Positions 13,107 through 50,589 of a DNA stretch of 64,000 bases are shown in pieces; the first letter of the stretch is position 1, and each line of letters starts with the position of its first letter. Source of the DNA: Trypanosoma brucei. Lineage: Eukaryota. The notes beneath the pieces were generated by a model. That model was given only the letters and a program-made list of their open reading frames with translations, did not search any database and was not told the origin of the DNA. The DNA lies in NCBI GenBank assembly GCA_000002445.1, contig CP000070.1:1568001-1632000 (forward strand). Direction: 5' to 3'. The position numbers and the translations under genes were made by a program.

Positions 13107-13141
13107 AATATATATATATATATATATATATAGATATATAT
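13107..13141. repeat. (TA)n microsatellite
   Basis: Direct read. Abuts the start codon region of the next CDS. Confidence 0.85.
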
Positions 13142-13147
13142 AGTAAA

Positions 13148-22146: not shown

Positions 22147-22222
22147 AACAAAAATTATCTGGCAGCACACTGGGCGAAACATCAGGAGGAATACAACTGA
22201 GCGTACTGTACAAAACATTGCC
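22147..22222 (+). promoter_or_regulatory. conserved ~75-nt 5' flank / 5'UTR block shared by all eight PAD copies (example at copy 1)
   Basis: cagcacactgggYgaaacatcRggaggaatacaactgagcgtactgtacaaaacattgcc immediately precedes the ATG of every copy (22147, 24904, 31202, 34507, 37750, 40737, 43974, 46949). Copies 1, 2, 3, 6, 8 additionally share ~130 nt further upstream (…ctcccaaaacttaatgct…cacgtaaaggaacctaacattttagggaaacaaaaattatctgg). Confidence 0.6.
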
Positions 22223-24013: not shown

Positions 24014-24979
24014 AGCTTAGGGGAGCCAGTGGAGGGCGGCTTCCTGACGTTTATTCAACATTTTGTGTATTTATATAATGTTAGCGACGACAGGAGAAAG
24101 TAAAATGAACAGATATACTTTGATTCCTTTTTACTATACTTTTCCTTTTTTTTTGCTTCTTTGTCTATACATATCGCATACCATTAGTGAGTTCCTTTAT
24201 TATCGCCTCCGACAATGAAGACGGTGCGCCAACTCTGGTAAACGATAAATAAACGGTTTTAAAAAATCATCTTTACACATATTGTACGAGCAGTCCATGC
24301 ATTATTATTCTTTTTTTTTGAGTTTTCTCATCAGAAGAGATCGATACAACAACACCAGTCACTATATGAACACACCAACTTATATCGTTAAATTCTTCAC
24401 TTAGCTCTCGTTTATGATCGATAAAAGTTCGAATTCACCTCAAAAAATTTCCAGAATTAATATTATATTTTCTTTCCATTCTTTGCTATTTTCAGAGCGA
24501 TCTCCTTACTCTCACCCACTCTTCACCCGTGGAAACACCATGTAATCCTTTTCTTCTTGCGGTGGGAGAGAGGAGAGTGCAGACCAACACAGGCACCCCA
24601 ACACCGTTGATCCGTAGTGCTACCTATCTCGTCTTCATATCTTTACTGCTTGTTATAATTTTGTCTTTTTTACCTTTTTTTTTCGGCTGCGCTGTCACGG
24701 TTTTATAAATGTCCATTGCAAAATAGTTGCTCTCAAGACACACATCAATAGCATTATATCCGCCCAATACCTCTTCTTTCATTCTCCCAAAACTTAATGC
24801 TTTCATTTCTCCCTTTTTGACTTATTGAACCTTTGAACAATACCACAGACTAACAGCAATAAACAAGCACGCAGTCACGTAAAGGAACCTAACATTTTAG
24901 GGAAACAAAAATTATCTGGCAGCACACTGGGCGAAACATCAGGAGGAATACAACTGAGCGTACTGTACAAAACATTGCC

Positions 24980-26797: not shown

Positions 26798-29700
26798 CAT
26801 CTTTTTTTTCTTTTCACTAACTTATGTTTTTAGCGGCACGTTACAGTGTACTAATTATCGTTTTACCCTCTCTTTTTTATTTTTTAATTTGTTAAAAAAT
26901 TTTCCCTCAAAACGTCTTTTCTTTTTGTGAATTACTATTCCTTCCCTTTTTTTTTTGTTTTTGTGGGGAAGGGGGAGGAAATTGTGGTAATGTAAACTGG
27001 TATATGTGTTTAATAACTTAAATGCCTTATGATGTGCAATTTCATTAGTAGTTCCGCTGCTTTCCAGTACCGAATATATTTTATGTTACTTAGCCTTCGC
27101 TGCGATGTAACAAGTAGTGGGGTGGTTGATTACTTGGCATATATAATGCACAGCATCAGGGCAGAGGCCACAGTTGTTTAGTTACACATTTTCCTACCTT
27201 CCATAATGTTGTTTTTTTTAGATTGAGCGATTCTTCCCCTTAAACTAATAATGTTTTTTAATTACCTCCTTCTTCCATCTTTTTTTTATTTTTGAAGGTC
27301 AGATTCCTTTTTATTATTATTATTTCTTCTCCCCTTTTCTGTGACTGTCTTTCAACCGCTTAGCACGTTGTTAGCGGAAGGACAAACGAAAACCTTAAAG
27401 GTTTTTGTTAATTTTGTCTATTTACTCTGTTTTGTATCGATTTTCTTTTGAAACGCCACTGAAAATGTGGAGCACATTTACTTTTTTTCCGGCTGTTCAC
27501 ACATGTACACATGCTTGGCCTTTCAAATCCACGCAAACCTTTGAACGCCTCTTTTTTTTTAAGTTTCTTCTTAAGAGAACGTTTTTTTTGATTATTTTTC
27601 TTTTTTAGTTTGAATACTACAAAACTACTTGTTCCCAATGTATTGGTTAATTGCCGGTCGTGGGATTTTGGTCCTTAACACGTAGCGGATAGATGCGTCG
27701 CTCATGATTAACCTGTGCTTTACTGCTTAATTCCTTTAGTCATAGTGTAGGAAAATATACGAATAGGAAAATGCAAACCACATCATGAGAGCATGGCATT
27801 CATTGTTCAATGTCTGCGGTGATGATGAAAGGTGCAGAAGCCAACTTTCGTTGCTTCGTCGGGGAACCCGTGTGCAGCGAAGGTTCCTCTTAACCGTCGG
27901 GTGCTCGGCATTTGACAGGCAGTAGCTTTATACCGCGTTCATCCCATTAATTATTCTTTTGCTTTGTTGCCTCTACAACATGCTCGCTTGGGAATCAGCC
28001 GATGCTGATGTTATTGCACACGTTTATATTTGTGTTTACGTGTATGCTCACCTGTGTACAAGAGGAAGAAGCATGTGGGCCTATCCATCACTACCAGAGC
28101 GGAAACCTGTTGCACCTAAAAGGTGATAACCCATTGAAAAAATATTGCTATGTAGGTGAAAAACAAACGGCAAAGAAAAAAAGGAAGGGAAAGCTAAGCA
28201 AAGCATATCCCTCACCCAGACGTCTGAGATAAACGTGAAACTGGACGAAGTGAAATAACACACAAAAGAGTAATTGAACAAATGGTTTCTTCTTTGTCCC
28301 CAAATGCCACTCAGAGGGAAGATGGTACGACCCAACGCTACGAAGCACCAAAGCCCTATTTGTAAGGTAGCGAAGGGAGACGAGGAAAGGGGCTAACGCT
28401 GAGGCGGGAAATTTTAGCGGAGGCAGCGGGAGGAACGTTGGGATTTACAGGGCGCAAGTGACGTCATCATTCTCTGGCAAGTTTTTGTGGTAAAACAGCG
28501 AATGCTCCGGGTGGGAATGAAGTGCTTTTAGAGTGCCCTATACCTTTTTAACGTGCTTTTCTTTCTTTCTGACTTTCGTTTGCTTCGCGGCGGCAATGTA
28601 CGTGCTCACTTTGGTAGTATTTCCAATACCATTGGTAACACTATTTACTGGGGAAAAACGTTAAAACTCTGTATGCGATGTGTTGACGGCGATTAGTGGT
28701 GTTGGAGCGAGGAGGTCTCGTTTTCTCAATATTCCACGATGGGTGTGTGGGTGTGTCGCAAGGGCGGGAAAATTTCTCGTAGCAATTCCTACATATTTGT
28801 CGTGAGCAATTCACCAACGCAGCAAGATGAGGGAACCGCGCATTGGGGAAACAGGGGTTTACATTTCGCAGAAGCGCTTAATAGACATGCACAAATAACA
28901 CATGTTTGTTGGATGTTTGATCATGCACATGTAGTGGAGAAAGTAGACGCACACCCTTCCGCGCACCAAGCTAGGAGAGATCAAGGATTCCATCCTTAAA
29001 AGCGATGATGCTTGGTGTAAAGCATATTTCTTGATGTGACATAACTTTCGGGTGAACTACGTATTGGTTGGGGAGGGTTTCCCCTTGAATGCAAGGCGAA
29101 ATTTAGGTGGTTACAATTGAATGTATTTTTACTTTTTTTTTTCCAATGGCGTGCCTCCCAGCCAACGTTATTGGTGAACGCTCTTCAGATGTGAATACGT
29201 GAGCGCACCTACAGTGCGAGTTCTTTCACCCATCAGCACGGGTATGTTCCTACTCCGAGGTCAGTCCAGCTTGGCACCTCGGTGCATCGGGAGGCCCGCT
29301 GTGAGGTAGAGTCACCTCATTTTTTTTCCTTGTGTCAGTTAAAAAGCCGCTTCGCTGTATCAATGGTAAAGCTCTGTGACGACGACACTGCGGCAGGAGG
29401 TGAAGCTTGGGCTCAAAGTGTCCAATTTGTGTGTTGAGGTGCCCCATCAACCTGAAAATCTGTGCGCACGTTGGGTGCCACTCTGGTGATTTGGTGCGCG
29501 TGTCCCCAAGCGTAATCAGCGATCCACTTGGCGGTGCCACCCTCTCCTGCGATCAAACGGCTGCGTCTGGCGCCAATGCGGCTGACGTTGTGCCAACTCC
29601 CATGGTAAGAGGCCCTGGTAGGAAGGGTCTACCCGCCTTTGGATTTGGTGGTGAAACTGCGGTGCGTCCACTGTTTTATATTTTCCTCTGCAATCGTATC

Positions 29701-31277
29701 AGTGTTTAATGAGAAGTATGAAGGGGCTTTCTGTTTCGTTGCTTGCATCTTATTCACGCTCATCTTGTCTTTTTGCCGAACAAGTCGGTGTTTGAGGTAC
29801 CTCATCCTACTACGAACGGCCGGGTCCCTCTACGTTCGGAACTGAAGATACACGATATCCACTTTATGTCGCTCTCATCACCAACGTGATGGGTAATGCT
29901 GTGCGCGTTGAAGGGAGAATGCCTTCAAGTTAACATGAGGGTGTTGCCACCCTGCCTGCAATGATACACCCCTGGGCTCCTTCAACTCATCACCACAAAA
30001 AGGACTGCGAATTCATAACCCCGGAAGGTCTCCCTCAATATCTCTTGGACAATTCAGCACCTCTCCGTTTACATACTTCAGACGTGTCCCTCTGATGTTC
30101 GGCGATGTGATAAGTCATTCCTTGCAACTGCAAGACTTATTGCGTCTCTATGCGGGCATAGCTCCAGTTTATTAGGGAGGGGGAATCAGGTGCGAGTCCA
30201 GGTTCGTCACCTCGCTGTGAAGCACGTTGTAAATGCCACGATGCTCGGTTGTAGAAACCGCTGCGTAACTTTGCGCTCATGTGTCCTGCCGGGTCGCGTC
30301 ACGTGGCAGTGATTCTCAGCGTCAAAGGGGTCCCCGACGGTATTACAAGCTTGAACCGTGCTGTTTTCAGTTGCGCAACCATGGCCATCATATCAGTGAA
30401 CCGTAGCCTCCCCGAAGGAATCGTAGGGAAGCGACTGGGGGCGTGCGAGCACTCACCAACGACTAATGTTTAGTTTCCTTCCACCCAATTATGTGCCGCA
30501 CTGCGTAGAGGATGTCTTTGCGCCCTGTGGGGAAATCGGAGCCTTCTCAGCCGAGAGATAACTGAGTGCAGATGTAAACTACCACAGCCACTCAACAGCC
30601 ACTGCCAAGTGAAACGGTTTACGTCATACCGTTTTCACTGCATCCGTATTTTACTCGTCTTTGATGCCATCAGCATCAAACAACATCATAAATACAGTAG
30701 TGTGCCACAAACTCCGAGTTATGCTTACTCTAACCGTAGAAGCAGAAAGGGTATGACAACAAAGGAGTCATTAACCCCTCAAACCACGTAGAATACATAA
30801 CAGTCCCCCTCTCCACCCCTACGCCAGGAAAGCACATTTCACATAATGTCGGAGAGACTAATGTGACTACAATGCGCGCACAGCACCTTTATTACCAAAA
30901 AGAAATGGACAAGCGAAGCAAAAAAAAAAAAAGAGACATTTGATCAACGCGCAAAAAATGAGGGATTGAACCTTCCAAATGGAAAGCACCTCCCGTCTTT
31001 TTCATGAAAAACAGCAAGCAAGATGTATTCTCCCAGACAACAATAGAGCTATGATTAACTTCTCACCACCTAGTTTCGTTCTCCCAAAACTTAATGCTCT
31101 CATTTCTCCCCTTTTCGACTTATTGAACCTTTGAACAATACCACAGACTAACAGCAATAAGCAAGCACGCAGTCACGTAAAGGAACCTAACATTTTAGGG
31201 AAACAAAAATTATCTGGCAGCACACTGGGTGAAACATCGGGAGGAATACAACTGAGCGTACTGTACAAAACATTGCC

Positions 31278-33050: not shown

Positions 33051-33570
33051 GGCTGTTGAATATTTTGAATGTGTTATTTCTGACGGTTTAACTTTACTTC
33101 GTAGCAGTGAGGTTTCCTATTTTATTTTATTTTGTTTCCTCGTTTGCGATAATGCTGCACGCTTCGTTACAGGGCGGGCATGTATGTCCTCCATTTTCAA
33201 ATTTTTTAGTGTAAGAGCTGAAGTATTTTTTTTTCTTTTTAATACATTTATCTATTAAGTGGATAAACCCATCACATTTGTTTTGGTTGTGTTAAATCAC
33301 CTGTTATTATCAGGACTAAATAGTGTGAAACAATCATATAATACTACAATGCAATATAAGAGTGATGCGTTCCATTTGTTTTTAGATATAAACATGTAAC
33401 CTTGACACGTTTAAGACCGCAAAATACGCGGCCTAATAATAATCGTACCATTAATGTACTATTGGTGAAGACACTGAACGTCATTAGCATTCGATATAAT
33501 TTACAACACCAAAAAAACACAGAACACTTTTAAGGTAAACCTCACCCTCGAACCGCCTTAGCGTTTTCAT

Positions 33571-34530
33571 TTTTGCATATGGGTTTACCCAGCGTGAGAT
33601 GTCCAGCAGCAGGCAGGCACATACACACGCAGCAAATAGTGGTTTCACTGCTGTTTATCTTCTGTTGGGTTTAAAAAACTCGCAATCTGAGCACCTTTCT
33701 GTTCGAGGGCTGACGATATTACTCCCCCGCTTCGGAGCTAAGGTTTCTTTGGCAGGTTGTCTTTCGCCCGCCCTCCTAAATTGTGTTGTCTTTTTGGGAA
33801 AACGGCAATAACTTTCAGATACCTTTGTTACTTATTTGTGTGTGACCCTCCCTGCCTCGTTGTGTGCGCAGGTGGGATGCCACCACTCGTCACTTCCGAC
33901 TTAACTCCTCTGCATAATACAGAAAAAGCTATTGATCTTTCCTTACATTTTCTCGTGTTGGAAGGTTTGTTGCGCGGTTGGTCAAGCATACATATATACG
34001 GATGGACGATGGTAAGGGAACAAATACCCGGTGACCTTTCATTATACTCAGTATATAAAGAATGTTTTCTTATGGCCAACTAGCTATCAGCTGATGGGAA
34101 CCATTCCAGTTTGTATAGTTGTGCGAACAATAAATAGATGCTACAGTAGTAGTCTTCAACATAACTATGGCATATTTAGTAACACATCATAGCTACGTAA
34201 GGCAGTGTGAAACTTTAAATACTTGGAGGCCTATTGGAGGTTGTAACAAGAAACAACATCGCCTATGATATGTGTACCTCCACAAATGACGGTAAATACC
34301 TACTTAAAAGGCTGTTCTGTGGAATCATCGGACCAAACATCGAGATGGAGTTATTCACTAAACACAGAAAAAAGCGATCATCTTACCTTTATACACATGA
34401 CACTGGTAGCTACTCCCATTATTACTTCTTTTCATTTGCAACCTACGTTATTATCCCCTCACATCCTCAAAGCTTTCAAATACATAAGATAAACACATTT
34501 ATAAGAGCAACCACCATCACCACAGCACAC
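33571..34530 (+). repeat. ~1-kb interspersed 'type-B' intergenic element, copy 1 of 4
   Basis: Near-identical ~960-bp block (tttttgcatatgggtttacccagcgtgagatgtccagcagcaggcaggcac … cacagcacactggg) found upstream of array copies 4, 5, 7 and, truncated, after copy 8. Its short internal ORFs (e.g. 108 aa MSFARPPKLCC…) repeat only because the DNA repeats. Confidence 0.8.
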
Positions 34531-34582
34531 TGGGTGAAACATCAGGAGGAATACAACTGAGCGTACTGTACAAAACATTGCC

Positions 34583-36379
34583 ATGAGCGCACCCGTCGAC
34601 AACGTCGTGGTGGAGCGGCTCTCTACAGCCAACCAAAAACCGGTCAGTGAGCCCCGCCGTTTCCTCATGCTCGTCATTGGAGTCTCATGTTCCATGTGCA
34701 CATCCTTCATGTATGCCTTCAATCTTATATCTGGAGCAATGCAGGAACGTTACGACCTCACACAGCGAGATCTCTCCACCATCACTACTGTTGGCATCTG
34801 TGTCGGATATTTCATGCTGCCTTATGGTTTCATCTATGACTATCTGGGGCCGAGACCTGTATTTGTAATATCAATGACAGTTTTCTGCCTGGGTACGTTG
34901 CTTCTCGCACTGACATTCCAAGAAGTGATTGAAGGATCTGTTGTGAGACTCAGTGTCTACAACGCCCTCATGATGCTCGGCTGCACACTCTTTGATTTGG
35001 GAGCCCTTGTGACAGTACTCAGCGTGTTTCCATCCAACCGTGGCATTGTTGTGGCTACTATGAAGACTACCACCGGACTTGGTTCCGCAATCCTCGGTAG
35101 CATTCGCCTTGCATTCTTCAGCGGCAACACCTCTGCTTATTTCTACTTCCTCATGTCGTGGGCCCTGGCCGCTGGCATCTTGGCTCTTACGTTCGTCCGG
35201 CTACCGCCATTCCATTTGACGGGCTATCAGGAAAAGCACCTTGATGAAGAAGAGAAGGCACAGCTTCGCATGACCAAGACCGTGTACCTGAAGCAGAAGG
35301 CACCCATGTGGCGTTTCGTTCATGGTTTCGCCATTCTCGTAACCCTCATTGTGTTCCTCCCCCTGCAGGGATCTCTTGTAGCGTATCTCAAACTCGGAAG
35401 CAACTTCAAGGTGGGGTTTGCACTCGTTGTTATCGCGTTGATCGTAATATTCCCTTTTATGGCATTCCCACTTACTACCTTCGACGGCAAGCGCCCACAT
35501 GACGATTCTGACAGCAAAGCCAAAGAACACGTTGGAGCAGGTGATGAAATTTCCGCGGCGGAAGATAAGGTAGTTGAGACTGATGTCGACTATATTGCTC
35601 CACAGTTCCAGGAAACATTTATCGCAGGATTGAAAACCGCACGGTTATGGTGCCTACTGTGGTCAGCTTTCTGTTGTCTTGGAGCCAATTATGTCATAAT
35701 TTACAATGCCCGTTTTTTTTACACGGCACTGGCGGGTGAGGCCCCTGAAGACGCGCTAAACACCCTCCTTACTGTTCTAAATGGTGCCGGTAGTGCCGTA
35801 GGACGACTTTGTATGGGCTACTTCGAAATCTGGTCGCAGAAGCGGCCTGCTGCTGACCGTATTCCGATCACCGCCGCTCTTTACGTTCCTTCGGTTTGTA
35901 TCATCACCATGTTGACACTCTTCCTCACTCTCCCGAAGGCTGCATTACCTTTACCATACTTCATCGTGGCGTTCTCAAATGGTTTCACAGCGGCTACGAT
36001 GGCACTCGTAACACGCACAATATTCGCCAAGGATCCTGCAAAGCATTACAACTTCTGCTTTATAGGTTCTATCATGTCAGCCATCTTCCTTAATCGTCTA
36101 CTGTACGGTGAGTGGTACACGCAACAAGCCGATAAGTTGGGTCAGGATGTTTGCACCGAGCGTGTTTGTGTGGTGATGCCGCTTGCATTTATGTTAGGTC
36201 TCGCCTTTCTTGGTTTTCTTACCACAACGTACTTGCATCTGCAGTACCGCCGCCTTTGCAAGCTTGCGCTTGAGGAACGTCAGCGCATCCGGGAGGAGGA
36301 GCGTGTGCTAAATGAGTTGCCTTCTAACCCTACAGAGCCGACGGGGAATGCCGGTGAACCTGTGCATCAACTCAAGTGA
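34583..36379 (+). CDS. PAD4: PAD-family MFS transporter, array copy 4
   Basis: 598 aa. Loop DSKAKEHVGAGDEISAAED. C-tail …RVLNELPSNPTEPTGNAGEPVHQLK. Preceded by the ~1-kb 'type-B' intergenic element. Confidence 0.65.
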   Translation: MSAPVDNVVVERLSTANQKPVSEPRRFLMLVIGVSCSMCTSFMYAFNLISGAMQERYDLTQRDLSTITTVGICVGYFMLPYGFIYDYLGPRPVFVISMTVFCLGTLLLALTFQEVIEGSVVRLSVYNALMMLGCTLFDLGALVTVLSVFPSNRGIVVATMKTTTGLGSAILGSIRLAFFSGNTSAYFYFLMSWALAAGILALTFVRLPPFHLTGYQEKHLDEEEKAQLRMTKTVYLKQKAPMWRFVHGFAILVTLIVFLPLQGSLVAYLKLGSNFKVGFALVVIALIVIFPFMAFPLTTFDGKRPHDDSDSKAKEHVGAGDEISAAEDKVVETDVDYIAPQFQETFIAGLKTARLWCLLWSAFCCLGANYVIIYNARFFYTALAGEAPEDALNTLLTVLNGAGSAVGRLCMGYFEIWSQKRPAADRIPITAALYVPSVCIITMLTLFLTLPKAALPLPYFIVAFSNGFTAATMALVTRTIFAKDPAKHYNFCFIGSIMSAIFLNRLLYGEWYTQQADKLGQDVCTERVCVVMPLAFMLGLAFLGFLTTTYLHLQYRRLCKLALEERQRIREEERVLNELPSNPTEPTGNAGEPVHQLK

Positions 36380-36813
36380 GTATGGAAGTTACTCGATTTT
36401 AAGCTGTGAGGTAATTTAAAAAAAACGTGTTTATTTGTTATTTTTTTTTTTGCGTGTACAAAACGCCTTTAGTGTCTTGTGGTAATATCTTGTATGTCTT
36501 AATTATGCTAATATACTAAAAACCGTATTTCTTGTTCTTACCCACTGCGGGAAGTGGACACTTGGATTAACAGTATCATAAGACAGAACTCTCTTTTTGA
36601 TCCATGGTAAACTTCCCGCTACATTCTCTCATTTTCTCCGGGTGTGTTTGTAGGGATTTTTTTACAATTCTATCCTCTATTTTTTTTTTTTAATGCGATA
36701 CTGACTTTACCTTTTGTTAACAAAAATTGGTTTGTTTATTCCCTGCTTTTTTTTCGTTTCTAATGTTGTCGTAATATTTTATTTACAATTATTTCTTAAT
36801 CTAATATATTTAT

Positions 36814-37773
36814 TTTTGCATATGGGTTTACCCAGCGTGAGATGTCCAGCAGCAGGCAGGCACGTACACACGCAGCAAATAGTGGTTTCACTGCTGTTTA
36901 TCTTCTGTTGGGTTTAAAAAACTCGCAATCTGAGCACCTTTCTGTTCGAGGGCTGACGATATTACTCCCCTGCTTCGGAGCTAAGGTTTCTTTGGCAGGT
37001 TGTCTTTCGCCCGCCCTCCTAAATTGTGTTGTCTTTTTGGGAAAACGGCAATAACTTTCAGATACCTTTATTACTTATTTGTTTGTCACCCTCCCTGCCT
37101 CGTTGTGTGCGCAGGTGGGATGCCACCACTCGTCACTTCCGACTTAACTCCTCTGCATAATACAGAAAAAGCTATTGATCTTTCCTTACATTTTCTCGTG
37201 TTGGAAGGTTTGTTGCGCGGTTGGTCAAGCATACATATATACGGATGGACGATGGTAAGGGAACAAATACCCGGTGACCTTTCATTATACTCAGTATATA
37301 AAGAATGTTTTCTTATGGCCAACTAGCTATCAGCTGATGGGAACCATTCCAGTTTGTATAGTTGTGCGAACAATAAATAGATGCTACAGTAGTAGTCTTC
37401 AACATAGCTATGGCATATTTAGTAACACATCATAGCTACGCAAGGCAGTGTGAAACTTTAAATACTTGGAGGCCTATTGGAGGTTGTAACAAGAAACAAC
37501 ATCGCCTATGATATGTGTACCTCCACAAATGACGGTAAATACCTACTTAAAAGGCTGTTCTGTGGAATCATCGGACCAAACATCGAGATGGAGTTATTCA
37601 CTAAACACAGAAAAAAGCGATCATCTTACCTTTATACACATGACACTGGTAGCTACTCCCATTATTACTTCTTTTCATTTGCAACCTACGTTATTATCCC
37701 CTCACATCCTCAAAGCTTTCAAATACATAAGATAAACACATTTATAAGAGCAACCACCATCACCACAGCACAC
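36814..37773 (+). repeat. type-B intergenic element, copy 2
   Basis: Same block, offset +3243. Confidence 0.8.
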
Positions 37774-37825
37774 TGGGTGAAACATCAGGAGGAATACAAC
37801 TGAGCGTACTGTACAAAACATTGCC

Positions 37826-39583
37826 ATGAGCGCACCCGTCGACAACGTCGTGGTGGAGCGGCTCTCTACAGCCAACCAAAAACCCATCAACGAGCCCCGC
37901 CGCTTTGCGCTGTTGGTTCTTGGCGCCTTTTGTTCCATGTGTACGTCCTTTCTCTATGCCTTCAATCTCGTATCTGGAGCAATGCAAGCGCGCTACAACC
38001 TCACACAGCGAGATCTCTCCACCATCACTACTGTTGGTATCGCAGTTGGATATTTCTTGCTGCCCTACAGCTTCATCTATGACTATCTGGGGCCGAGACC
38101 CATATTTATGCTCTCAGTAACGGTGTTCTGCCTGGGTACGTTGCTTCTCGCACTGACATTCCAAGAAGTGATTGAAGGATCTGTTGTGAGACTCAGTGTC
38201 TACAATGGTCTCATGACATTGGGATGTATGTTGTTTGACTTAGGCGGTGTGGTGACAGTACTCAGCGTGTTTCCATCCAACCGTGGTGCCATTGTGGCTA
38301 TCATGAAGAGCTTTGCAGGACTTGGTTCCGCAATCCTAGGCAGTATTCAGTTGGCCTTCTTCAGTGACAGGCCAGATATATATTTCTTTTCTATCATGTC
38401 GTTTGCCCTAACGGTTGGTATCCTCGGCATTGTATTCATGCGTCTGCCACCATTCCATTTGACGGGCTATCAGGAAAAGCACCTTGATGAAGAAGAGAAG
38501 GCACAGAGGCTTGCGCGCAAGGGTGTGTACCTGAAGCAGAAGGCACCCATGTGGCGTTTCATCTATGGTTTCGTCCTTCTCATCATCCTCATTTTCTTCC
38601 TCCCCCTGCAGGGAGCGCTCGTAGCGTATCTCAAACTCGGAAGCAACTTCAAGGTGGGGTTTGCTGTGACAGTTATTGTGTTGACCGCAATATTCCCTTT
38701 TATGGCATTCCCACTTACTACCTTCGACGGAAAACGCCCACATGACGATTCTGATGGTGAGGTGGATGATAAAGAGGAAATGAGTGAAGAGCCCTTCCCT
38801 GTGGAAGATAAGGTAGTTGAGACTGATGTCGACTATATTGCTCCACAGTTCCAGGAAACATTTTTCGAGAGCCTGAAAACAGCACGGTTATGGTGCCTAC
38901 TGTGGTCAATTTTCTGTTGCGTTGGTGCCGAGTTTGTCATCATTTTTAATGCCCGATTTGTATACACGGCACTTGCGGGTGAGGTCCCCGACGACGCGCT
39001 AAACACCCTCCTTACTGTTCTAAATGGTGTGGGTAGTGCTGTAGGACGACTTTGTATGAGTTACTTCGAAATCTGGTCGCAGAAGCGCCGTGCTGAAGAT
39101 CGCGTCCCCATCACCATTGCGCTGTTTATCCCTTCGGTTTGTATCATCACCATGTTGACACTCTTCCTCACTCTCCCGAAGGCTGCATTACCTTTACCAT
39201 ACTTCATCGCAGCAACAGCCAACGGCTTTATGGCCACAACCATCGCCCTCGTCGCCCGCACAATATTCGCCAAGGATCCTGCAAAGCATTATGATTTCTG
39301 CTTTCTTGGTTCAATGCTTTCAGCCATCTTCCTTAATCGTCTACTGTACGGTGAGTGGTACACGCAACAAGCCGATAAGTTGGGTCAGGATGTTTGCACC
39401 GAGCGTGTTTGTGTGGTGATGCCGCTTGCATTCTTACTTGGTTTATCTTTCTTGGCATTCATCACCAGCACCTACGTGCATCTGCAGTACCGAAATCTTT
39501 GTTTGAAGGCCCTTGAAGAACGTCGGCGCATCAGAGAAGGCGAAGAGGCATTAAATGATGAGTCACTGTCCCACACAGAATAG
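37826..39583 (+). CDS. PAD5: PAD-family MFS transporter, array copy 5
   Basis: 585 aa. Shares the copy-3 loop. C-tail …GEEALNDESLSHTE. Confidence 0.65.
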   Translation: MSAPVDNVVVERLSTANQKPINEPRRFALLVLGAFCSMCTSFLYAFNLVSGAMQARYNLTQRDLSTITTVGIAVGYFLLPYSFIYDYLGPRPIFMLSVTVFCLGTLLLALTFQEVIEGSVVRLSVYNGLMTLGCMLFDLGGVVTVLSVFPSNRGAIVAIMKSFAGLGSAILGSIQLAFFSDRPDIYFFSIMSFALTVGILGIVFMRLPPFHLTGYQEKHLDEEEKAQRLARKGVYLKQKAPMWRFIYGFVLLIILIFFLPLQGALVAYLKLGSNFKVGFAVTVIVLTAIFPFMAFPLTTFDGKRPHDDSDGEVDDKEEMSEEPFPVEDKVVETDVDYIAPQFQETFFESLKTARLWCLLWSIFCCVGAEFVIIFNARFVYTALAGEVPDDALNTLLTVLNGVGSAVGRLCMSYFEIWSQKRRAEDRVPITIALFIPSVCIITMLTLFLTLPKAALPLPYFIAATANGFMATTIALVARTIFAKDPAKHYDFCFLGSMLSAIFLNRLLYGEWYTQQADKLGQDVCTERVCVVMPLAFLLGLSFLAFITSTYVHLQYRNLCLKALEERRRIREGEEALNDESLSHTE

Positions 39584-40115
39584 GCTGCCGATGTCAGTTT
39601 GGCCTTTGGTAAGTAAATTATGTGCTTTGCTTTGATTTATAACATTCATAAGGTTTGTAAAAGTGCTGGTCAGCTAAATTTTCTTTACACCAATTTTACA
39701 TTGTGAGCCCTTCCCTTAATATTTTTCCTTCACAATTCCATCCCATCATTTTCGTTGTTTTGTGTTAACATCTGCCTGTGACTCATCAGGTAAATACTGA
39801 TCTTTTCCCCTTTTGGTTAACTTTTATTATTATTATTTTTTAATGTGTTCGTCCATATTTGTGGTCTTATGATAATGCGTACGACAATATAAGCCGCTGA
39901 TATGAGTGAGGGAACGTTATGCAGCGTACTCGGTAGACTCCAAGTACTGTAATTTACTTCCCTTTCAAGTGGTTCGTACGAATAATTTGTGTCACGGCAT
40001 CTTATTCATTTTTGTTTTCAGATATTAATAATTCCACGAGTATCTTTCTGCCGCTCTGTAATGCTCTTTTGTTTTCTCTTAATAAGCTGTTGGTTGTCAT
40101 TTTCGTTTACGTACC

Positions 40116-40118
<3 letters not shown>

Positions 40119-40146
<28 letters not shown>
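40119..40146. repeat. (AT)n microsatellite in type-A 3' flank
   Basis: Direct read. The same position in the duplicated flank (46346-46358) has a shorter tract, i.e. length polymorphism between paralogous flanks. Confidence 0.85.
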
Positions 40147-40150
<4 letters not shown>

Positions 40151-40812
40151 ACTCATGTGTACCTATTTTACACTATAATGAAAAATGCAACGGTGTGACA
40201 TATATCACACATAGCCAACAAAACATTTTCGGCACATATAACCTCTTTAAAGAGAATAAAACATTTAAAAATAAGTACACGAAGACTATATGCGGGGACC
40301 CTACGGCGCACCAGCGTAACTACAGTATTGACAATATATTATCAACTGCCACTCTTCACCCGCGGAAACACCATGTAATCCTTTTCTTCTTGCGGTGGGA
40401 GAGAGGAGAGTGCAGAACAACACAGGCACCCCAACACCGTTGATCCGTAGTGCTACCTATCTCGTCTTCATATCTTTACTGCTTGTTATAATTTTGTCTT
40501 TTTTACCTTTTTTTTTCGGCTGCGCTGTCACGGTTTTATAAATGTCCATTGCAAAATAGTTGCTCTCAAGACACACATCAATAGCATTATATCCGCCCAA
40601 TACCTCTTCTTTCATTCTCCCAAAACTTAATGCTTTCATTTCTCCCTTTTTGACTTATTGAACCTTTGAACAATACCACAGACTAACAGCAATAAACAAG
40701 CACACAGTCACGTAAAGGAACCTAACATTTTAGGGAAACAAAAATTATCTGGCAGCACACTGGGTGAAACATCGGGAGGAATACAACTGAGCGTACTGTA
40801 CAAAACATTGCC

Positions 40813-42609
40813 ATGAGCGCACCCGTCGACAACGTCGTGGTGGAGCGGCTCTCTACAGCCAACCAAAAACCGGTCAGTGAGCCCCGCCGTTTCCTCATGC
40901 TCGTCATTGGAGTCTCATGTTCCATGTGTACGTCCTTCATGTATGCCTTCAATCTTATATCTGGAGCAATGCAGGAACGTTACGACCTCACACAGCGAGA
41001 TCTCTCCACCATCACTACTGTTGGCATCTGTGTCGGATATTTCATGCTGCCTTATGGTTTCATCTATGACTATCTGGGGCCGAGACCTGTATTTGTAATA
41101 TCAATGACAGTTTTCTGCCTGGGTACGTTGCTTCTCGCACTGACATTCCAAGAAGTGATTGAAGGATCTGTTGTGAGACTCAGTGTCTACAACGCCCTCA
41201 TGATGCTCGGCTGCACACTCTTTGATTTGGGAGCCCTTGTGACAGTACTCAGCGTGTTTCCATCCAACCGTGGCATTGTTGTGGCTACTATGAAGACTAC
41301 CACCGGACTTGGTTCCGCAATCCTCGGTAGCATTCGCCTTGCATTCTTCAGCGGCAACACCTCTGCTTATTTCTACTTCCTCATGTCGTGGGCCCTGGCC
41401 GCTGGCATCTTGGCTCTTACGTTCGTCCGGCTACCACCATTCCATTTGACGGGCTATCAGGAAAAGCACCTTGATGAAGAAGAGAAGGCACAGCTTCGCA
41501 TGACCAAGACCGTGTACCTGAAGCAGAAGGCACCCATGTGGCGTTTCGTTCATGGTTTCGCCATTCTCGTAACCCTCATTGTGTTCCTCCCCCTGCAGGG
41601 ATCACTTGTAGCGTATCTCAAACTCGGAAGCAACTTCAGGGTGGGGTTTGCACTCGTTGTTATCGCGTTGATCGTAATATTCCCTTTTATGGCATTCCCA
41701 CTTACTACCTTCGACGGCAAACGCCCACATGACGATTCTGACAGCAAAGCCAAAGAACACGTTGGAGCAGGTGATGAAGTTTCCGCGGCGGAAGATAAGG
41801 TAGTTGAGACTGATGTCGACTATATTGCTCCACAGTTCCAGGAAACATTTATCGCAGGATTGAAAACCGCACGGTTATGGTGCCTACTGTGGTCAGCTTT
41901 CTGTTGTCTTGGAGCCAATTATGTCATAATTTACAATGCCCGTTTTTTTTACACGGCACTGGCGGGTGAGGCCCCTGAAGACGCGCTAAACACCCTCCTT
42001 ACTGTTCTAAATGGTGCAGGTAGTGCTGTAGGACGACTTTGTATGGGCTACTTCGAAATCTGGTCGCAGAAGCGGCCTGCTGCTGACCGTATTCCGATCA
42101 CCGCCGCTCTTTACGTTCCTTCGGTTTGTATCATCACCATGTTGACACTCTTCCTCACTCTCCCGAAGGCTGCATTACCTTTACCATACTTCATCGTGGC
42201 GTTCTCAAATGGTTTCACAGCGGCTACGATGGCACTCGTAACACGCACAATATTCGCCAAGGATCCTGCAAAGCATTACAACTTCTGCTTTATAGGTTCT
42301 ATCATGTCAGCCATCTTCCTTAATCGTCTACTGTACGGTGAGTGGTACACGCAACAAGCCGATAAGTTGGGTCAGGATGTTTGCAAGAAGCGTGTTTGTG
42401 TGGTGATGCCGCTTGCATTTATGTTAGGTCTCGCCTTTCTTGGTTTTCTTACCACAACGTACTTGCATCTGCAGTACCGCCGCCTTTGCAAGCTTGCGCT
42501 TGAGGAACGTCAGCGCATCCGGGAGGAGGAGCGTGTGCTAAATGAGCTGCCTTCTAACCCTACAGAGCCGACGGGGAATGCCGGTGAACCTGCGCATCAA
42601 CTCAAGTGA
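40813..42609 (+). CDS. PAD6: PAD-family MFS transporter, array copy 6 (near-identical to copy 4)
   Basis: 598 aa. Differs from copy 4 at only a handful of residues (K→R in SNFRVGF, I→V in DEVSAAE, TE→KK in VCKKRVC, V→A in PAHQLK). Confidence 0.65.
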   Translation: MSAPVDNVVVERLSTANQKPVSEPRRFLMLVIGVSCSMCTSFMYAFNLISGAMQERYDLTQRDLSTITTVGICVGYFMLPYGFIYDYLGPRPVFVISMTVFCLGTLLLALTFQEVIEGSVVRLSVYNALMMLGCTLFDLGALVTVLSVFPSNRGIVVATMKTTTGLGSAILGSIRLAFFSGNTSAYFYFLMSWALAAGILALTFVRLPPFHLTGYQEKHLDEEEKAQLRMTKTVYLKQKAPMWRFVHGFAILVTLIVFLPLQGSLVAYLKLGSNFRVGFALVVIALIVIFPFMAFPLTTFDGKRPHDDSDSKAKEHVGAGDEVSAAEDKVVETDVDYIAPQFQETFIAGLKTARLWCLLWSAFCCLGANYVIIYNARFFYTALAGEAPEDALNTLLTVLNGAGSAVGRLCMGYFEIWSQKRPAADRIPITAALYVPSVCIITMLTLFLTLPKAALPLPYFIVAFSNGFTAATMALVTRTIFAKDPAKHYNFCFIGSIMSAIFLNRLLYGEWYTQQADKLGQDVCKKRVCVVMPLAFMLGLAFLGFLTTTYLHLQYRRLCKLALEERQRIREEERVLNELPSNPTEPTGNAGEPAHQLK

Positions 42610-43036
42610 GTATGGAAGTTACTCGATTTTAAGCTGTGAGGTAATTTTAAAAAAACGTGTTTATTTGTTATTTTTTTTTGCGTGTACAAAACGCCTTTAG
42701 TGTCTTGTGGTAATATCTTGTATCTCTTAATTATGCTAATATACTAAAAACCGTATTTCTTGTTCTTACCCACTGCGGGAAGTGGACACTTGGATTAACA
42801 GTATCATAAGACAGAACTCTCTTTTTGATCCATGGTAAACTTCCCGCTACATTCTCTCATTTTCTCCGGGTGTGTTTGTAGGGTTTTTTTATAATTCTAT
42901 CCTCTATTTTTTTTTTATTCGATACTGACTTTACCTTTTGTTAACAAAAATTGGTTTGTTTATTCCCTGCTTTTTTTTCGTTTCTAATGTTGTCGTAATA
43001 TTTTATTTACAATTATTTCTTAATCTAATATATTTA

Positions 43037-43996
43037 TTTTTGCATATGGGTTTACCCAGCGTGAGATGTCCAGCAGCAGGCAGGCACATACACACGCAGC
43101 AAATAGTGGTTTCACTGCTGTTTATCTTCTGTTGGGTTTAAAAAACTCGCAATCTGAGCACCTTTCTGTTCGAGGGCTGACGATATTACTCCCCCGCTTC
43201 GGAGCTAAGGTTTCTTTGGCAGGGTGTCTTTCGCCCGCCCTCCTAAATTGTGTTGTCTTTTTGGGAAAACGGCAATAACTTTCAGATACCTTTATTACTT
43301 ATTTGTTTGTGACCCTCCCCGCCTCGTTGTGTGCGCAGGTGGGATGCCACCACTCGTCACTTCCGACTTAACTCCTCTGCATAATACAGAAAAAGCTATT
43401 GATCTTTCCTTACATTTTCTCGTGTTGGAAGGTTTGTTGCGCGGTTGGTCAAGCATACATATATACGGATGGACGATGGTAAGGGAACAAATACCCGGTG
43501 ACCTTTCATTATACTCAGTATATAAAGAATGTTTTCTTATGGCCAACTAGCTATCAGCTGATGGGAACCATTCCAGTTTGTATAGTTGTGCGAACAATAA
43601 ATAGATGCTACAGTAGTAGTCTTCAACATAACTATGGCATATTTAGTAACACATCATAGCTACGTAAGGCAGTGTGAAACTTTAAATACTTGGAGGCCAA
43701 TTGGAGGTTGTAACAAGGAACAACATCGCCTATGATATGTGTACCTCCACAAATGACGGTAAATACCTACTTAAAAGGCTGTTCTGTGGAATCATCGGAC
43801 CAAACATCGAGATGGAGTTATTCACTAAACACAGAAAAAAGCGATCATCTTACCTTTATACACATGACACTGGTAGCTACTCCCATTATTACTTCTTTTC
43901 ATTTGCAACCTACGTTATTATCCCCTCACATCCTCAAAGCTTTCAAATACATAAGGTAAACACATTTATAAGAGCAACCACCATCACCACAGCACA
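43037..43996 (+). repeat. type-B intergenic element, copy 3
   Basis: Same block, offset +9466. Confidence 0.8.
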
Positions 43997-44049
43997 CTGG
44001 GCGAAACATCAGGAGGAATACAACTGAGCGTACTGTACAAAACATTGTC

Positions 44050-45807: not shown

Positions 45808-47024
45808 GCTGCCGATGTCAGTTTGGCCTTTGGTAAGTAAATTATGTGCTTTGCTTTGATTTATAACATTCATAAGGTTTGTAAAAGTGCTGGTCAGCTA
45901 AATTTTCTTTACACCAATTTTACATTGTGAGCCCTTCCCTTAATATTTTTCCTTCACAATTCCATCCCATCATTTTCGTTGTTTTGTGTTAACATCTGCC
46001 TGTGACTCATCAGGTAAATACTGATCTTTTCCCCTTTTGGTTAACTTTTATTATTATTATTTTTTAATGTGTTCGTCCGGATTTGTGGTCTTATGATAAT
46101 GCGTACGACAATATAAGCCGCTGATATGAGTGAGGGAACGTTATGCAGCGTACTCGGTAGACTCCAAGTACTGTAATTTACTTCCCTTTCAAGTGGTTCG
46201 TACGAATAATTTGTGTCACGGCATCTTATTCATTTTTGTTTTCAGATATTAATAATTCCACGAGTATCTTTCTGCCGCTCTGTAATGTTCTTTTGTTTTC
46301 TCTTAATAAGCTGTTGGTTGTCATTTTCGTTTACGTACCTAAATATATATATATATATGTATACTCATGTGTACCTATTTTACACTATAATGAAAAATGC
46401 AACGGTGTGACATATATCACACATAGCCAACAAAACATTTTCGGCACATATAACCTCTTTAAAGAGAATAAAACATTTAAAAATAAATACACGAAGACTA
46501 TATGCGGGGACCCTACGGCGCACCAGCGTAACTACAGTATTGACAATATATTATCAACTGCCACTCTTCACCCGTGGAAACACCATGTAATCCTTTTCTT
46601 CTTGCGGTGGGAGAGAGGAGAGTGCAGAACAACACAGGCACCCCAACACCGTTGATCCGTAGTGCTACCTATCTCGTCTTCATATCTTTACTGCTTGTTA
46701 TAATTTTGTCTTTTTCACCTTTTTTTTTCGGCTGCGCTGTCACGGTTTTATAAATGTCCATTGCAAAATAGTTGCTCTCAAGACACACATCAATAGCATT
46801 ATATCCGCCCAATACCTCTTCTTTCATTCTCCCAAAACTTAATGCTTTCATTTCTCCCTTTTCGACTTATTGAACCTTTGAACAATACCACAGACTAACA
46901 GCAATAAACAAGCACGCAGTCACGTAAAGGAACCTAACATTTTAGGGAAACAAAAATTATCTGGCAGCACACTGGGTGAAACATCGGGAGGAATACAACT
47001 GAGCGTACTGTACAAAACATTGCC

Positions 47025-48821: not shown

Positions 48822-49187
48822 GTATGGAAGTTACTCGATTTTAAGCTGTGAGGTAATTTAAAAAAACGTGTTTATTTGTTATTTTTTTTTTTTGCGTGTA
48901 CAAAACGCCTTTAGTGTCTTGTGGTAATATCTTGTATCTCTTAATTATGCTAATATACTAAAAACCGTATTTCTTGTTCTTACCCACTGCGGGAAGTGGA
49001 CACTTGGATTAACAGTATCATAAGACAGAACTCTCTTTTTGATCCATGGTAAACTTCCCGCTACATTCTCTCATTTTCTCCGGGTGTGTATGTAGGGATT
49101 TTTTTATAATTTTATTCCCTATTTTTTTTTCTTACCTTTGGTGGCAAAGTGAGCGTCAAATTATTTATTCAACCGTGTTTTAATGTA

Positions 49188-49592
49188 TTTTTGCATATGG
49201 GTTTACCCAGCGTGAGATGTCCAGCAGCAGGCAGGCACATACACACGCAGCAAATAGTGGTTTCACTGCTGTTTATCTTCTGTTGGGTTTAAAAAACTCG
49301 CAATCTGAGCACCTTTCTGTTCGAGGGCTGACGATATTACTCCCCTGCTTCGGAGCTAAGGTTTCTTTGGCAGGTTGTCTTTCGCCCGCCCTCCTAAATT
49401 GTGTTGTCTTTTTGGGAAAACGGCAATAACTTTCAGATACCTTTATTACTTATTTGTGTGTGACCCTCCCTGCCTCGTTGTGTGCGCAGGTGGGATGCCA
49501 CCACTCGTCACTTCCGACTTAACTCCTCTGCATAATACAGAAAAAGCTATTGATCTTTCCTTACATTTTCTCGTGTTGGAAGGTTTGTTGTT
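49188..49592 (+). repeat. type-B intergenic element, truncated terminal copy
   Basis: Matches the first ~400 bp of the element, then diverges at ~49593 (…ggaaggtttgttg|ttcatgcg…). Marks the end of the array. Confidence 0.75.
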
Positions 49593-50589
49593 CATGCGTT
49601 CTTTTTTGCCGCTGAGCGATGGTTGCTTTAGCAAAGCCTTTGTGGACCAAAACGTAGTTTCCAAAAAGTAATGGATCGATGCTGATTTGGGTTGTCTGCT
49701 CTTATGTTATGTTGTTGCGTGTAAGGTCCATGTTGAGGAGGCCTGAGGCTTACTGAGAAACACTTTTTGAGCTTAAATCACTTCAAATGTGGCGGCGTTG
49801 ACTGCAGTGTACGGTGGTGTTCTGTTTTAAGACAAGGCAATTGAGAAGGAATGATGAAATATCTTCGAAAGACCCAAACTCTCGCGTGGGGCACGCATGG
49901 AGAAACGCATTATTATTACTTTTTTTTTGACCTGACACAGCATATTGTACAACCCCTTTCCACACCCCTACTGAGGAACAACACCATGCGATTGCCCAGC
50001 ACCGCCTCATGTTTATTTCCCGCTCATCAGATCCGCCCTCAACACTGAAGGATTTTGAAGTTAAGGTAGGCGGCAGGTGAATGGTTGACAGCAGGATGTT
50101 CCTGGCACCACTCTTCCTTTCTGGTGTATGCTTTACAACATCTCCTTGTCGGAACAAGTCCGGCAGCCACGCACTTTTAAGTTAAGGTGGCACATCAGCG
50201 AGTCACCCGTACACTCACCAATTTTGATCCGTTATTCCACAGAAGGATGTTAACCTTGATCGTGGCAAGCTTCGAAAACAACCCCTTTTCTATCCATAAT
50301 CGTATGTAGGTGTTGTCGTCATGCAACTCGGCTGACCCTCTCTTTCCGACTCGGAACCAAAGAAAAGAACACCCATCTTCTGTAAAAATACATTTGTCTC
50401 CGCGCCCGAAAATTAACTACTACCACTTTTTCCATGTGAGGGAGAAAAGTTACCACTCACTACATTGTTACAGTTACTCAGTAAAATCACAAGAATCAAA
50501 GTACAACAAAATAAACCCACATAATAAAAAATATTAGAATTACGCTTCCAATATTACCGCCACTCGCCCCCTCTCACTCATGTCGTTAT

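What the first reader, a model, noticed from the sequence alone, without database searches (positions are those of the whole stretch)
33571..34530. ~1-kb interspersed element inserted upstream of a subset of array genes (four copies)
A near-identical ~960-bp block precedes copies 4, 5 and 7, and a truncated copy terminates the array after copy 8. Where it is present, it replaces the distal part of the otherwise conserved 5' flank and leaves only the proximal ~75 nt. Copy 6 is not preceded by it: the 34583–40812 and 40813–47024 duplication units each carry the element once, before their second gene. It is not protein-coding in any convincing way: the 108-aa ORFs have no motifs and overlap each other. 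It is GC-balanced rather than T-rich. It could be a SINE-like retroposon remnant, a structured ncRNA (snoRNA cluster or other Pol III product), or a UTR module that changes processing or regulation of the downstream transporter mRNA.
Basis: seen in the sequence. Interest (0 to 1): 0.55.

Follow-up and report, generated by a model that had tools for sequence, protein, structure and literature searches.

The report
Repeated intergenic cassette with embedded lncRNA
The ~1-kb repeat in this Trypanosoma brucei transporter (PAD) gene array is not a jumping element: it is one of two alternative spacers between genes, copied with the genes and kept uniform by recombination, and it holds the upstream gene's mRNA tail end, a small already-catalogued non-coding RNA, and the splice signals for the next gene.

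Summary
A 954-958-nt block (33565/33569-34522) recurs at 36812-37765 and 43036-43989 (99.3%), and as a 404-408-nt stump at 49187-49590. The window is T. brucei TREU927 chromosome 7 (window + 1,568,000), and the genes are PAD1-8.

The "inserted upstream element" reading is only partly right. The block shows no mobile-element hallmarks, no Rfam or snoRNA signal, no unusual folding and no coding signal. All copies sit at the same position in the array. They follow PAD3/4/6/8 and precede PAD4/5/7, in 927, in T. b. gambiense and in T. equiperdum.

A second, unrelated 464-nt cassette fills the other spacers and is equally uniform (98.9%). The coding regions are conversion mosaics, and four sites show concerted evolution.

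Published transcript maps divide the block as follows:
- Positions 1-245 are the distal 3'UTR and poly(A) site of the upstream PAD (shown for PAD6).
- A pyrimidine tract plus AG gives a splice acceptor at position 401.
- Positions ~401-809 are a spliced-leader, polyadenylated ~410-nt lncRNA (nt_2615.1, Kruse & Göringer 2023).
- A second pyrimidine tract and AGs serve the downstream PAD.

This is an ordinary feature of trypanosome tandem arrays. Copy number outside the array could not be tested.

The parts
33569..34522 (+). Cassette copy A (between PAD3 and PAD4). Element position p = window 33564 + p.
33569..33809 (+). Element 5-245: inferred distal 3'UTR of the upstream PAD, ending at a poly(A) site (GGCAAT|AAC).
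   Evidence: Kolev 2010 Table S13 gives the predominant PAD6 PAS as 1611276 = window 43276 = element position 245 in copy C. For copy A this is inferred from 99% identity.
33810..33964 (+). Element 246-400: spacer with pyrimidine-rich stretches, ending in the AG at 33963-33964 (internal trans-splice acceptor).
   Evidence: sequence; the start points of two published transcripts
33965..34373 (+). Element 401-809: body of lncRNA nt_2615.1 (published as 1601963-1602373). Its 3' end lies in the A-run AGAAAAAAG.
   Evidence: Kruse & Göringer 2023 Table S5; transcripts were defined from reads carrying both SL and poly(A). The longest AUG ORF is 36 aa and the fold z-score is -0.06.
34374..34522 (+). 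Element 810-958: spacer, the main pyrimidine tract (element 849-905), and candidate acceptor AGs for the downstream PAD at element 907, 923, 940 and 942. Further AGs at 960 and 980 lie in the shared 60 nt.
   Evidence: Which AG is actually used was not determined.
34523..34582 (+). 60 nt before the ATG, shared by all eight PAD genes (98%). Not specific to the cassette.
36812..37765 (+). Cassette copy B (between PAD4 and PAD5). The lncRNA-equivalent segment is 37208-37616.
43036..43989 (+). Cassette copy C (between PAD6 and PAD7). The PAD6 poly(A) site is at 43276 and the lncRNA-equivalent segment is 43432-43840.
49187..49590 (+). Truncated copy D after PAD8 (element 5-408). It retains the 3'UTR tail, the spacer and the internal acceptor.
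   Evidence: The same stump is present in DAL972 and T. equiperdum.
49583..49943 (+). Kolev novel transcript Tb7.NT.68. It starts at element position 401 of copy D and runs into unique sequence.
   Evidence: Kolev 2010 Table S7

Best explanation
The block is one of two alternative, non-homologous intergenic cassettes of the T. brucei PAD1-8 array. It is not mobile. It was copied together with the genes by tandem duplication of a 6.2-kb two-gene unit, and a further copy was placed after PAD3. Gene conversion keeps the copies near-identical, as it does much of the rest of the array.

Within the polycistronic precursor RNA the cassette works as two consecutive processing modules:
1. Positions 1-245 are the last part of the 3'UTR of the upstream gene (PAD3/4/6/8). 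Its poly(A) site at ~245 is set by the pyrimidine-rich spacer and the AG acceptor at 399-400.
2. Trans-splicing at position 401 and polyadenylation at ~809 release a ~410-nt non-coding RNA that carries a spliced leader and a poly(A) tail.
3. The strong pyrimidine tract at 849-905 and the following AGs trans-splice the downstream PAD4/5/7 mRNA.

What is shown by published maps: the PAD6 poly(A) site, the lncRNA ends at copy A, and the transcript start at the same acceptor in copy D. What is inferred: that all copies behave alike, and that the lncRNA is mainly a by-product of having two processing modules rather than a regulator.
For: - The four copies and their sharp edges.
- The window is TREU927 chromosome 7 at offset 1,568,000. 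Predominant PAS minus 3'UTR length equals the stop codon for PAD2/5/6/7.
- Copies occur only at equivalent array positions in TREU927, DAL972 and T. equiperdum, at 99.3-99.7% identity.
- The other spacers carry an unrelated 464-nt cassette that is 98.9% identical between copies. The PAD5 and PAD7 poly(A) sites lie inside it, 261 nt before the next ATG.
- The coding regions alternate between 100%-identical and 50-85% blocks.
- Sites 802, 835, 838 and 864 have one state in all 927 copies and another in both DAL972 copies.
- The PAD6 predominant PAS falls at element position 245.
- Tb7.NT.68 starts at element position 401 in copy D, directly after an AG.
- nt_2615.1 spans element 399-809 in copy A and was defined from SL + poly(A) reads.
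- The PAS-to-acceptor distances (~155 and ~100-150 nt) match the usual trypanosome coupling of polyadenylation to the downstream trans-splice site (established knowledge).
- The same paper describes arrays of paralogous genes interrupted by identical lncRNAs.
Against: - Genome-wide copy number outside the array could not be tested, because no trypanosome DNA database is available in these tools.
- The poly(A) and splice-site maps came from short or uniquely mapped reads in a 99%-identical repeat. Assignment to PAD6 and to copy A may therefore be arbitrary, and expression from copies B and C is not shown. Kruse's 'similar lncRNA elsewhere' column is empty for nt_2615.1.
- The acceptor actually used by PAD4/5/7 was not found in any accessible table.
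- Read-through from position 401 into the PAD coding region (a ~620-nt 5'UTR isoform) is not excluded.
- There is no evidence either way on whether the lncRNA has a function.
Confidence: 0.78

Rival explanations
1. The ~410-nt RNA is a functional lncRNA, not a by-product. It would be repeated three times inside the PAD array and would tune PAD mRNA processing, stability or differentiation, in the way grumpy acts next to RBP7. It might instead encode a micropeptide.
For: It is a discrete SL + poly(A) transcript with enough reads to be tested for stage regulation. The lncRNA body has the lowest density of variable sites among copies and subspecies (6/409 vs 18/609), though this is not significant (p = 0.14). 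The PAD array is central to differentiation, and PAD4/6/8 mRNA depends on DRBD3. DRBD3 also affects lncRNAs and cryptic splice sites (abstract only).
Against: It shows no stage regulation ('no' in Table S5). It has no stable structure (z = -0.06). No homology was detectable in the 2.1 kb upstream of a T. congolense PAD gene. Its ORFs are at most 36 aa, and no predicted protein anywhere matches. Between-copy identity is no higher than that of the lncRNA-free class I cassette.
Confidence: 0.1
2. It is a SINE-like or RIME-like retroposon, or its remnant, that inserted repeatedly upstream of PAD genes.
For: It is a ~1-kb non-coding block with a very sharp left edge and 99% identity between copies, while adjacent sequence is unrelated or 80-89% identical.
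Against: There is no A-rich 3' end, no target-site duplication and no terminal repeat. The only pairs found are 10-29 nt and at chance level. The right flank is the same in every full copy and identity continues into the coding region. Copies sit only at equivalent array positions in three genomes. There are no diverged copies elsewhere in 64 kb. It does not resemble the retroposon 5' signature, though that signature was recalled from memory, so this is only a lead. The class I cassette shows the same sharp-edged, homogenised behaviour.
Confidence: 0.03
3. It is a structured small-RNA locus: a snoRNA cluster, a Pol III product or another Rfam-type RNA.
For: None beyond the absence of coding signal. 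snoRNAs in trypanosomes are often processed from SL/poly(A) precursor transcripts (caption of Kolev Figure S7).
Against: There are no Rfam hits at gathering thresholds in the whole window, and only noise at E <= 10 in the block. There is no RUGAUGA C box, there are no tRNAs, and folding is no better than shuffles.
Confidence: 0.03
4. It is the relic of a small protein-coding gene that once lay between PAD genes. Its processing signals survive, but its reading frame has decayed.
For: It has its own splice acceptor and poly(A) site. The first 245 nt are 47% GC, closer to coding composition.
Against: All six-frame pieces of at least 35 aa, concatenated to 884 aa, found no protein at E <= 0.001 among 5.8 billion. 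No intact ATG ORF exceeds 75 aa.
Confidence: 0.05

Closest known systems
Repetitive intergenic lncRNAs in T. brucei tandem gene arrays (Kruse & Göringer 2023, Figure 5: pteridine transporter array on chromosome 1, BARP array on chromosome 9)
   Same: Paralogous genes alternate with near-identical spliced-leader, polyadenylated non-coding transcripts. One copy here is itself in their catalogue as nt_2615.1.
   Different: The PAD array is not one of their examples, and no sister copies are listed for nt_2615.1. Here only every second spacer carries the lncRNA cassette, and a truncated copy drives a different transcript (Tb7.NT.68).
Ordinary trypanosome intergenic processing region (poly(A) site - pyrimidine tract - AG trans-splice acceptor)
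   Same: Each half of the block has exactly this layout, with typical spacing (PAS 245 to acceptor 401; PAS ~809 to AGs 907-961).
   Different: Two such modules are stacked in one spacer, so a short extra transcript is released between two mRNAs.
grumpy lncRNA upstream of RBP7 (Guegan et al. 2022)
   Same: Both are intergenic Pol II lncRNAs lying immediately upstream of differentiation-related genes in T. brucei.
   Different: grumpy is single-copy, ~2 kb, hosts a snoRNA and has a demonstrated phenotype. None of these was found here: there is no snoRNA signal and no functional data.
ingi/RIME/SIDER retroposons of trypanosomatids
   Same: They are non-coding blocks of 0.5-1 kb that can lie in UTRs and affect expression.
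   Different: This block has no A-tail, no target-site duplications, no dispersed copies in the sequence available, and its flanks are colinear with the array.

Membership tests
Trypanosome SL-trans-spliced, polyadenylated intergenic lncRNA repeated within a tandem array | Spliced leader at the 5' end and poly(A) at the 3' end of the same molecule | tested here: met
   From the literature, not a new experiment. nt_2615.1 (window 33963-34373) was defined from reads carrying >=10 nt of SL plus a poly(A) tail, with >=3 reads per transcript.
Trypanosome SL-trans-spliced, polyadenylated intergenic lncRNA repeated within a tandem array | Pyrimidine-rich tract and AG immediately upstream of the 5' end | tested here: met
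   ...CTATTGATCTTTCCTTACATTTTCTCGTGTTGGAAG|G, with the AG at 33963-33964. Tb7.NT.68 uses the same site in copy D.
Trypanosome SL-trans-spliced, polyadenylated intergenic lncRNA repeated within a tandem array | No coding potential | tested here: met
   The longest AUG ORF in 401-809 is 36 aa. No protein matches any frame. The authors classed it non-coding with CPC2 and LncFinder.
Trypanosome SL-trans-spliced, polyadenylated intergenic lncRNA repeated within a tandem array | Near-identical copies alternating with paralogous genes | tested here: met
   There are three full copies and one stump at 99.3-99.5% identity. Expression from copies B and C individually is not shown.
3'UTR of PAD3/4/6/8 mRNAs | The mapped poly(A) site lies inside the block, downstream of the stop codon of the upstream gene | tested here: met
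   PAD6 predominant 3'UTR is 667 nt and its PAS at 1611276 = window 43276 = element position 245. For PAD3, PAD4 and PAD8 this is inferred from identity only.
Trypanosomatid retroposon (ingi/RIME/SIDER/DIRE) | A-rich 3' tail | tested here: not met
   The 3' end reads ...CAACCACCATCACCACAG and joins the shared pre-ATG segment directly.
Trypanosomatid retroposon (ingi/RIME/SIDER/DIRE) | Target-site duplication flanking each copy | tested here: not met
   Left flanks differ between copies and right flanks are identical. No flanking direct repeat was found.
Trypanosomatid retroposon (ingi/RIME/SIDER/DIRE) | Conserved ~77-79-nt 5' signature | tested here: inconclusive
   A local alignment to a signature recalled from memory scored 10 against a shuffle mean of 9.0. 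No reference sequence was available, so this is only a lead.
Trypanosomatid retroposon (ingi/RIME/SIDER/DIRE) | Dispersed copies at unrelated loci | not testable with these tools
   No trypanosome genome DNA collection is available. Within 64 kb, and in the orthologous loci L001 and L002, copies occur only inside the array.
snoRNA cluster / structured small RNA | Match to a curated covariance model, or C/D or H/ACA box architecture | tested here: not met
   Rfam gives 0 hits at gathering thresholds and only E > 3 noise otherwise. No RUGAUGA is present. H/ACA-type AGA/ACA boxes were not scanned.
snoRNA cluster / structured small RNA | Folding more stable than composition predicts | tested here: not met
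   z = -0.06 for 401-809 and z = -0.91 for 1-245.

The most novel reading that the evidence does not exclude
The ~410-nt spliced-leader, polyadenylated RNA encoded three times inside the PAD array (plus a chimeric fourth version, Tb7.NT.68) is a functional regulator rather than a by-product. It could act in cis or trans on trans-splicing choice, 3'-end formation or stability of the flanking PAD3-8 mRNAs. Choice between the acceptor at position 401 and the proximal acceptor could also produce a long PAD4/5/7 5'UTR with 11 upstream AUGs. Either route would link a repeated lncRNA to the transporter family that conveys the differentiation signal.
Probability: 0.1. Interest if true: 0.6.

Novelty: new member of a known kind. 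Interest (0 to 1): 0.25.

Why it matters
The PAD genes are the best-known markers and sensors of the bloodstream-to-insect transition in T. brucei, and their paralogues are expressed differently. Two practical points follow. First, half of the spacers carry a different cassette, and this cassette sets a short 3'UTR for PAD3/4/6/8 and supplies a different splice region to PAD4/5/7. Anyone dissecting PAD regulation or designing paralogue-specific probes and reporters needs to know this. Second, standard unique-mapping pipelines under-report transcripts from the 99%-identical copies. Beyond that the feature is an ordinary consequence of tandem duplication and gene conversion in trypanosome arrays. 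It is not a new class of element.

Tried and rejected
- Exact-protein look-ups of window PAD1, PAD4 and the TREU927 representatives found nothing on record. Only the DAL972, T. equiperdum and T. congolense loci were retrievable.
- Concatenated six-frame ORF pieces were searched against 5.8 billion proteins, to find other genomic contexts and to test coding. There were no hits, so the search gave no information on copy number.
- Rfam in permissive mode returned only chance-level matches.
- Supplements of Siegel 2010, Nilsson 2010 and Guegan 2022 were not held, or lacked the PAD genes. Kolev's full SAS and PAS tables are cut before chromosome 7, so the acceptor used by PAD4/5/7 stays unknown.
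- An internal 445-nt periodicity (a 29-nt repeat before each pyrimidine tract) is at chance level, with 5 of 300 shuffles scoring as well.
- I considered assembly artefact as an explanation for the near-identity. I rejected it because independent assemblies show the same cassette in the same contexts.
- I considered '5'UTR class of a PAD subfamily'. I rejected it because PAD4 differs from PAD6 and PAD8 upstream, whereas all three share the block downstream.

Full report
**Observation.** BLASTN of the reported interval against the window returns four and only four matches. They are 33571-34530 itself, 36814-37773 and 43038-43997 (both 99.27% over 960 nt), and 49189-49590 (402 nt, 99.5%). A multiple alignment of the four spacers shows an abrupt left edge at 33565-33569, with unrelated sequence to the left in copy A compared with copies B, C and D. 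The fourth copy ends abruptly at 49590. To the right, the part specific to these copies ends at 34522. The last 60 nt before the ATG (34523-34582) are shared at 98% by all eight genes of the array. The 6.2-kb two-gene duplication is real: 34523-42915 matches 40753-49130 at 97%.

**What the window is.** The eight + strand ORFs (22223-48821) are MFS/Nodulin-like transporters. Their closest database relatives are the 'Proteins Associated with Differentiation' of T. brucei subspecies. In Kolev et al. 2010 Table S13, predominant poly(A) coordinate minus 3'UTR length reproduces the stop codons of genes 2, 5, 6 and 7 exactly when 1,568,000 is added to window coordinates. The window is thus TREU927 chromosome 7, 1,568,001-1,632,000, and the genes are PAD1-8 (Tb927.7.5930-6000).

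**Architecture of the array.** Each copy of the block lies 360-515 nt after the stop codon of PAD3, PAD4, PAD6 or PAD8, and the full copies lie immediately before PAD4, PAD5 and PAD7. The remaining spacers carry a different cassette. This 464-nt block is 98.9% identical in the PAD1-2, PAD5-6 and PAD7-8 spacers, with partial copies before PAD1 and PAD3. A sensitive search finds no homology between the two cassettes, or between the block and anything else in the 64 kb, apart from the common 60 nt. The block therefore replaces the other cassette rather than interrupting it.

It does not track a gene subfamily on its downstream side. PAD4 has it upstream, while its close paralogues PAD6 and PAD8 do not. 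It does follow all three PAD4/6/8-type genes.

The coding regions are themselves patchworks of 100%-identical and 50-85%-identical 100-nt windows, which is the signature of frequent gene conversion. The same cassette occupies the same contexts in T. b. gambiense DAL972 (L001) and T. equiperdum (L002) at 99.3-99.7% identity, including the truncated terminal copy. At element positions 802, 835, 838 and 864, all TREU927 copies share one base and both DAL972 copies share another. The truncated copies share their own markers across genomes. That pattern indicates orthology plus ongoing homogenisation.

**What it is not.**
- *Not a mobile element, on the evidence available.* There is no A-rich tail, no target-site duplication and no terminal repeat. 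The right flank is identical in all full copies, and identity continues into the first ~40 nt of coding sequence. A retroposon 5' signature recalled from memory does not align above shuffle level, which is only a lead.
- *Not a known structured RNA.* Rfam finds nothing in the whole window at gathering thresholds and only noise in permissive mode. There are no tRNAs and no C box. Folding energies match those of shuffles: z = -0.06 for positions 401-809 and z = -0.91 for 1-245.
- *Not coding.* The ORFs are short and mostly lack ATG starts. An 884-aa concatenation of every six-frame piece of at least 35 aa matches none of 5.8 billion predicted proteins.
- *Not detectably conserved beyond T. brucei.* The 2.1 kb upstream of a T. 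congolense PAD gene shows no similarity to either cassette.

**Transcript anatomy.** Three independent published end-points fall on the block and agree with the sequence signals. Element position p corresponds to window 33564 + p in copy A.
1. The predominant poly(A) site of PAD6 is 667 nt after its stop codon. This is window 43276, or element position 245, within GGCAAT|AAC.
2. Kolev's novel transcript Tb7.NT.68 (window 49583-49943) starts at element position 401 of the truncated copy. That is directly after the AG at positions 399-400, which is preceded by CTATTGATCTTTCCTTACATTTTCTCGTGTTGG.
3. Kruse & Göringer 2023 list a novel intergenic lncRNA, nt_2615.1, at 1601963-1602373. This is window 33963-34373, or element positions 399-809 of copy A. 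It was defined from nanopore direct-RNA reads carrying both spliced leader and poly(A), and it is not stage-regulated. Its 3' end lies in an A-run about 40 nt before the strongest pyrimidine tract of the block (849-905). That tract is followed by AGs at 907, 923, 940, 942 and 960.

The two intervals from poly(A) site to acceptor are ~155 nt and ~100-150 nt. Both are typical of the coupling between polyadenylation and downstream trans-splicing in trypanosomes (established knowledge). By comparison, the class I cassette contains a single such module, with the PAD5 and PAD7 poly(A) sites 261 nt before the next ATG.

**Mechanism proposed.** The block is a double processing cassette made of four parts:
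- the distal 3'UTR and poly(A) site for the upstream PAD;
- an internal acceptor;
- a ~410-nt SL/poly(A) non-coding transcript;
- the pyrimidine tract and acceptors for the downstream PAD.

It spread by duplication of the PAD4-cassette-PAD5 unit and by conversion, not by transposition. Three things are shown: the PAD6 poly(A) site, the lncRNA ends, and use of the internal acceptor in copy D. Three things are inferred: equal behaviour of all copies, the identity of the PAD4/5/7 acceptor, and the view that the lncRNA is a by-product.

**Caveats.** Both transcript maps used short or uniquely mapped reads in a 99%-identical repeat, so assignment to a particular copy is uncertain and other copies are probably under-reported. 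Genome-wide copy number could not be checked with the available collections.

**Comparison and novelty.** The closest described situation is the 'repetitive lncRNAs' of Kruse & Göringer: tandem arrays of paralogous genes interrupted by identical lncRNAs (pteridine transporters, BARP). This block meets every feature of that kind that I could test. One copy's transcript is already in their catalogue, although the PAD array and the sister copies are not mentioned. I therefore file it as a new member of a known kind, with low-to-moderate interest.

The most novel reading still open is that the repeated lncRNA, or the choice between its acceptor and the proximal one, regulates PAD expression. I put that at ~0.1 probability. 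PAD4/6/8 mRNA is known to depend on DRBD3, and a 2025 study links DRBD3 to lncRNA abundance and cryptic splice-site choice. However, that paper does not mention the PAD genes.

Noticed in passing
window 50593-52771 and 55569-57747: A 2,179-bp perfect (100%) inverted repeat flanks a ~2.8-kb spacer immediately after the last + strand gene. Kolev 2010 Table S14 ends the + transcription unit at PAD8 and starts a minus-strand unit at Tb927.7.6040, so the repeat brackets a convergent strand-switch (termination) region. Each arm holds a 183-aa ORF with no Pfam match.
   Followed up: partly
window 26798-31277 (transcript at 27740-31022): The 4.5-kb gap between PAD2 and PAD3 has no ORF longer than 100 aa. 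It does carry Kolev's 3.3-kb novel transcript Tb7.NT.67, listed with an alternative 3' end.
   Followed up: partly
window 24516-24979, 40349-40812, 46561-47024 (partial copies at 22031-22222 and 31074-31277): A second homogenised intergenic cassette ('class I', 464 nt, 98.9% identical) is unrelated to the reported block. The predominant poly(A) sites of PAD5 (40552) and PAD7 (46764) lie inside it.
   Followed up: yes
window 22163-22260 and the equivalent positions of all eight PAD genes: All eight genes share 60 nt before the ATG plus about the first 40 nt of coding sequence at 98-100% identity. In both upstream classes the shared stretch begins at a CAG, which could be a common trans-splice acceptor giving a 57-nt 5'UTR. 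This was not verified.
   Followed up: partly
PAD coding regions, window 22223-48821: The coding sequences are mosaics. For example, PAD3 vs PAD5 is 100% identical in several 100-nt windows and 53-68% in others. This indicates pervasive gene conversion between paralogues.
   Followed up: partly
window 62731-64000 (minus strand) and beyond: Kolev's novel transcripts Tb7.NT.70-73 are ~2,008-nt minus-strand RNAs recurring every ~6.55 kb from chromosome 7 coordinate 1,630,731. They lie next to the receptor adenylate cyclase gene (58783-62586). This is another array in which genes alternate with repeated non-coding transcripts.
   Followed up: no
window 33916-33944 and 34361-34389: A weak 29-nt direct repeat (72% identity, 445 nt apart) has each copy just 5' of one of the two pyrimidine tracts. 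The second copy spans the lncRNA 3' end. It is at chance level, with 5 of 300 shuffles scoring as well.
   Followed up: yes
L002 (T. equiperdum CM010678.1) 12758-14183: In this assembly the PAD6-like gene is split into 252-aa and 183-aa ORFs, through a frameshift or an assembly error. The array has fewer units than in TREU927. DAL972 also lacks one 6.2-kb unit.
   Followed up: no
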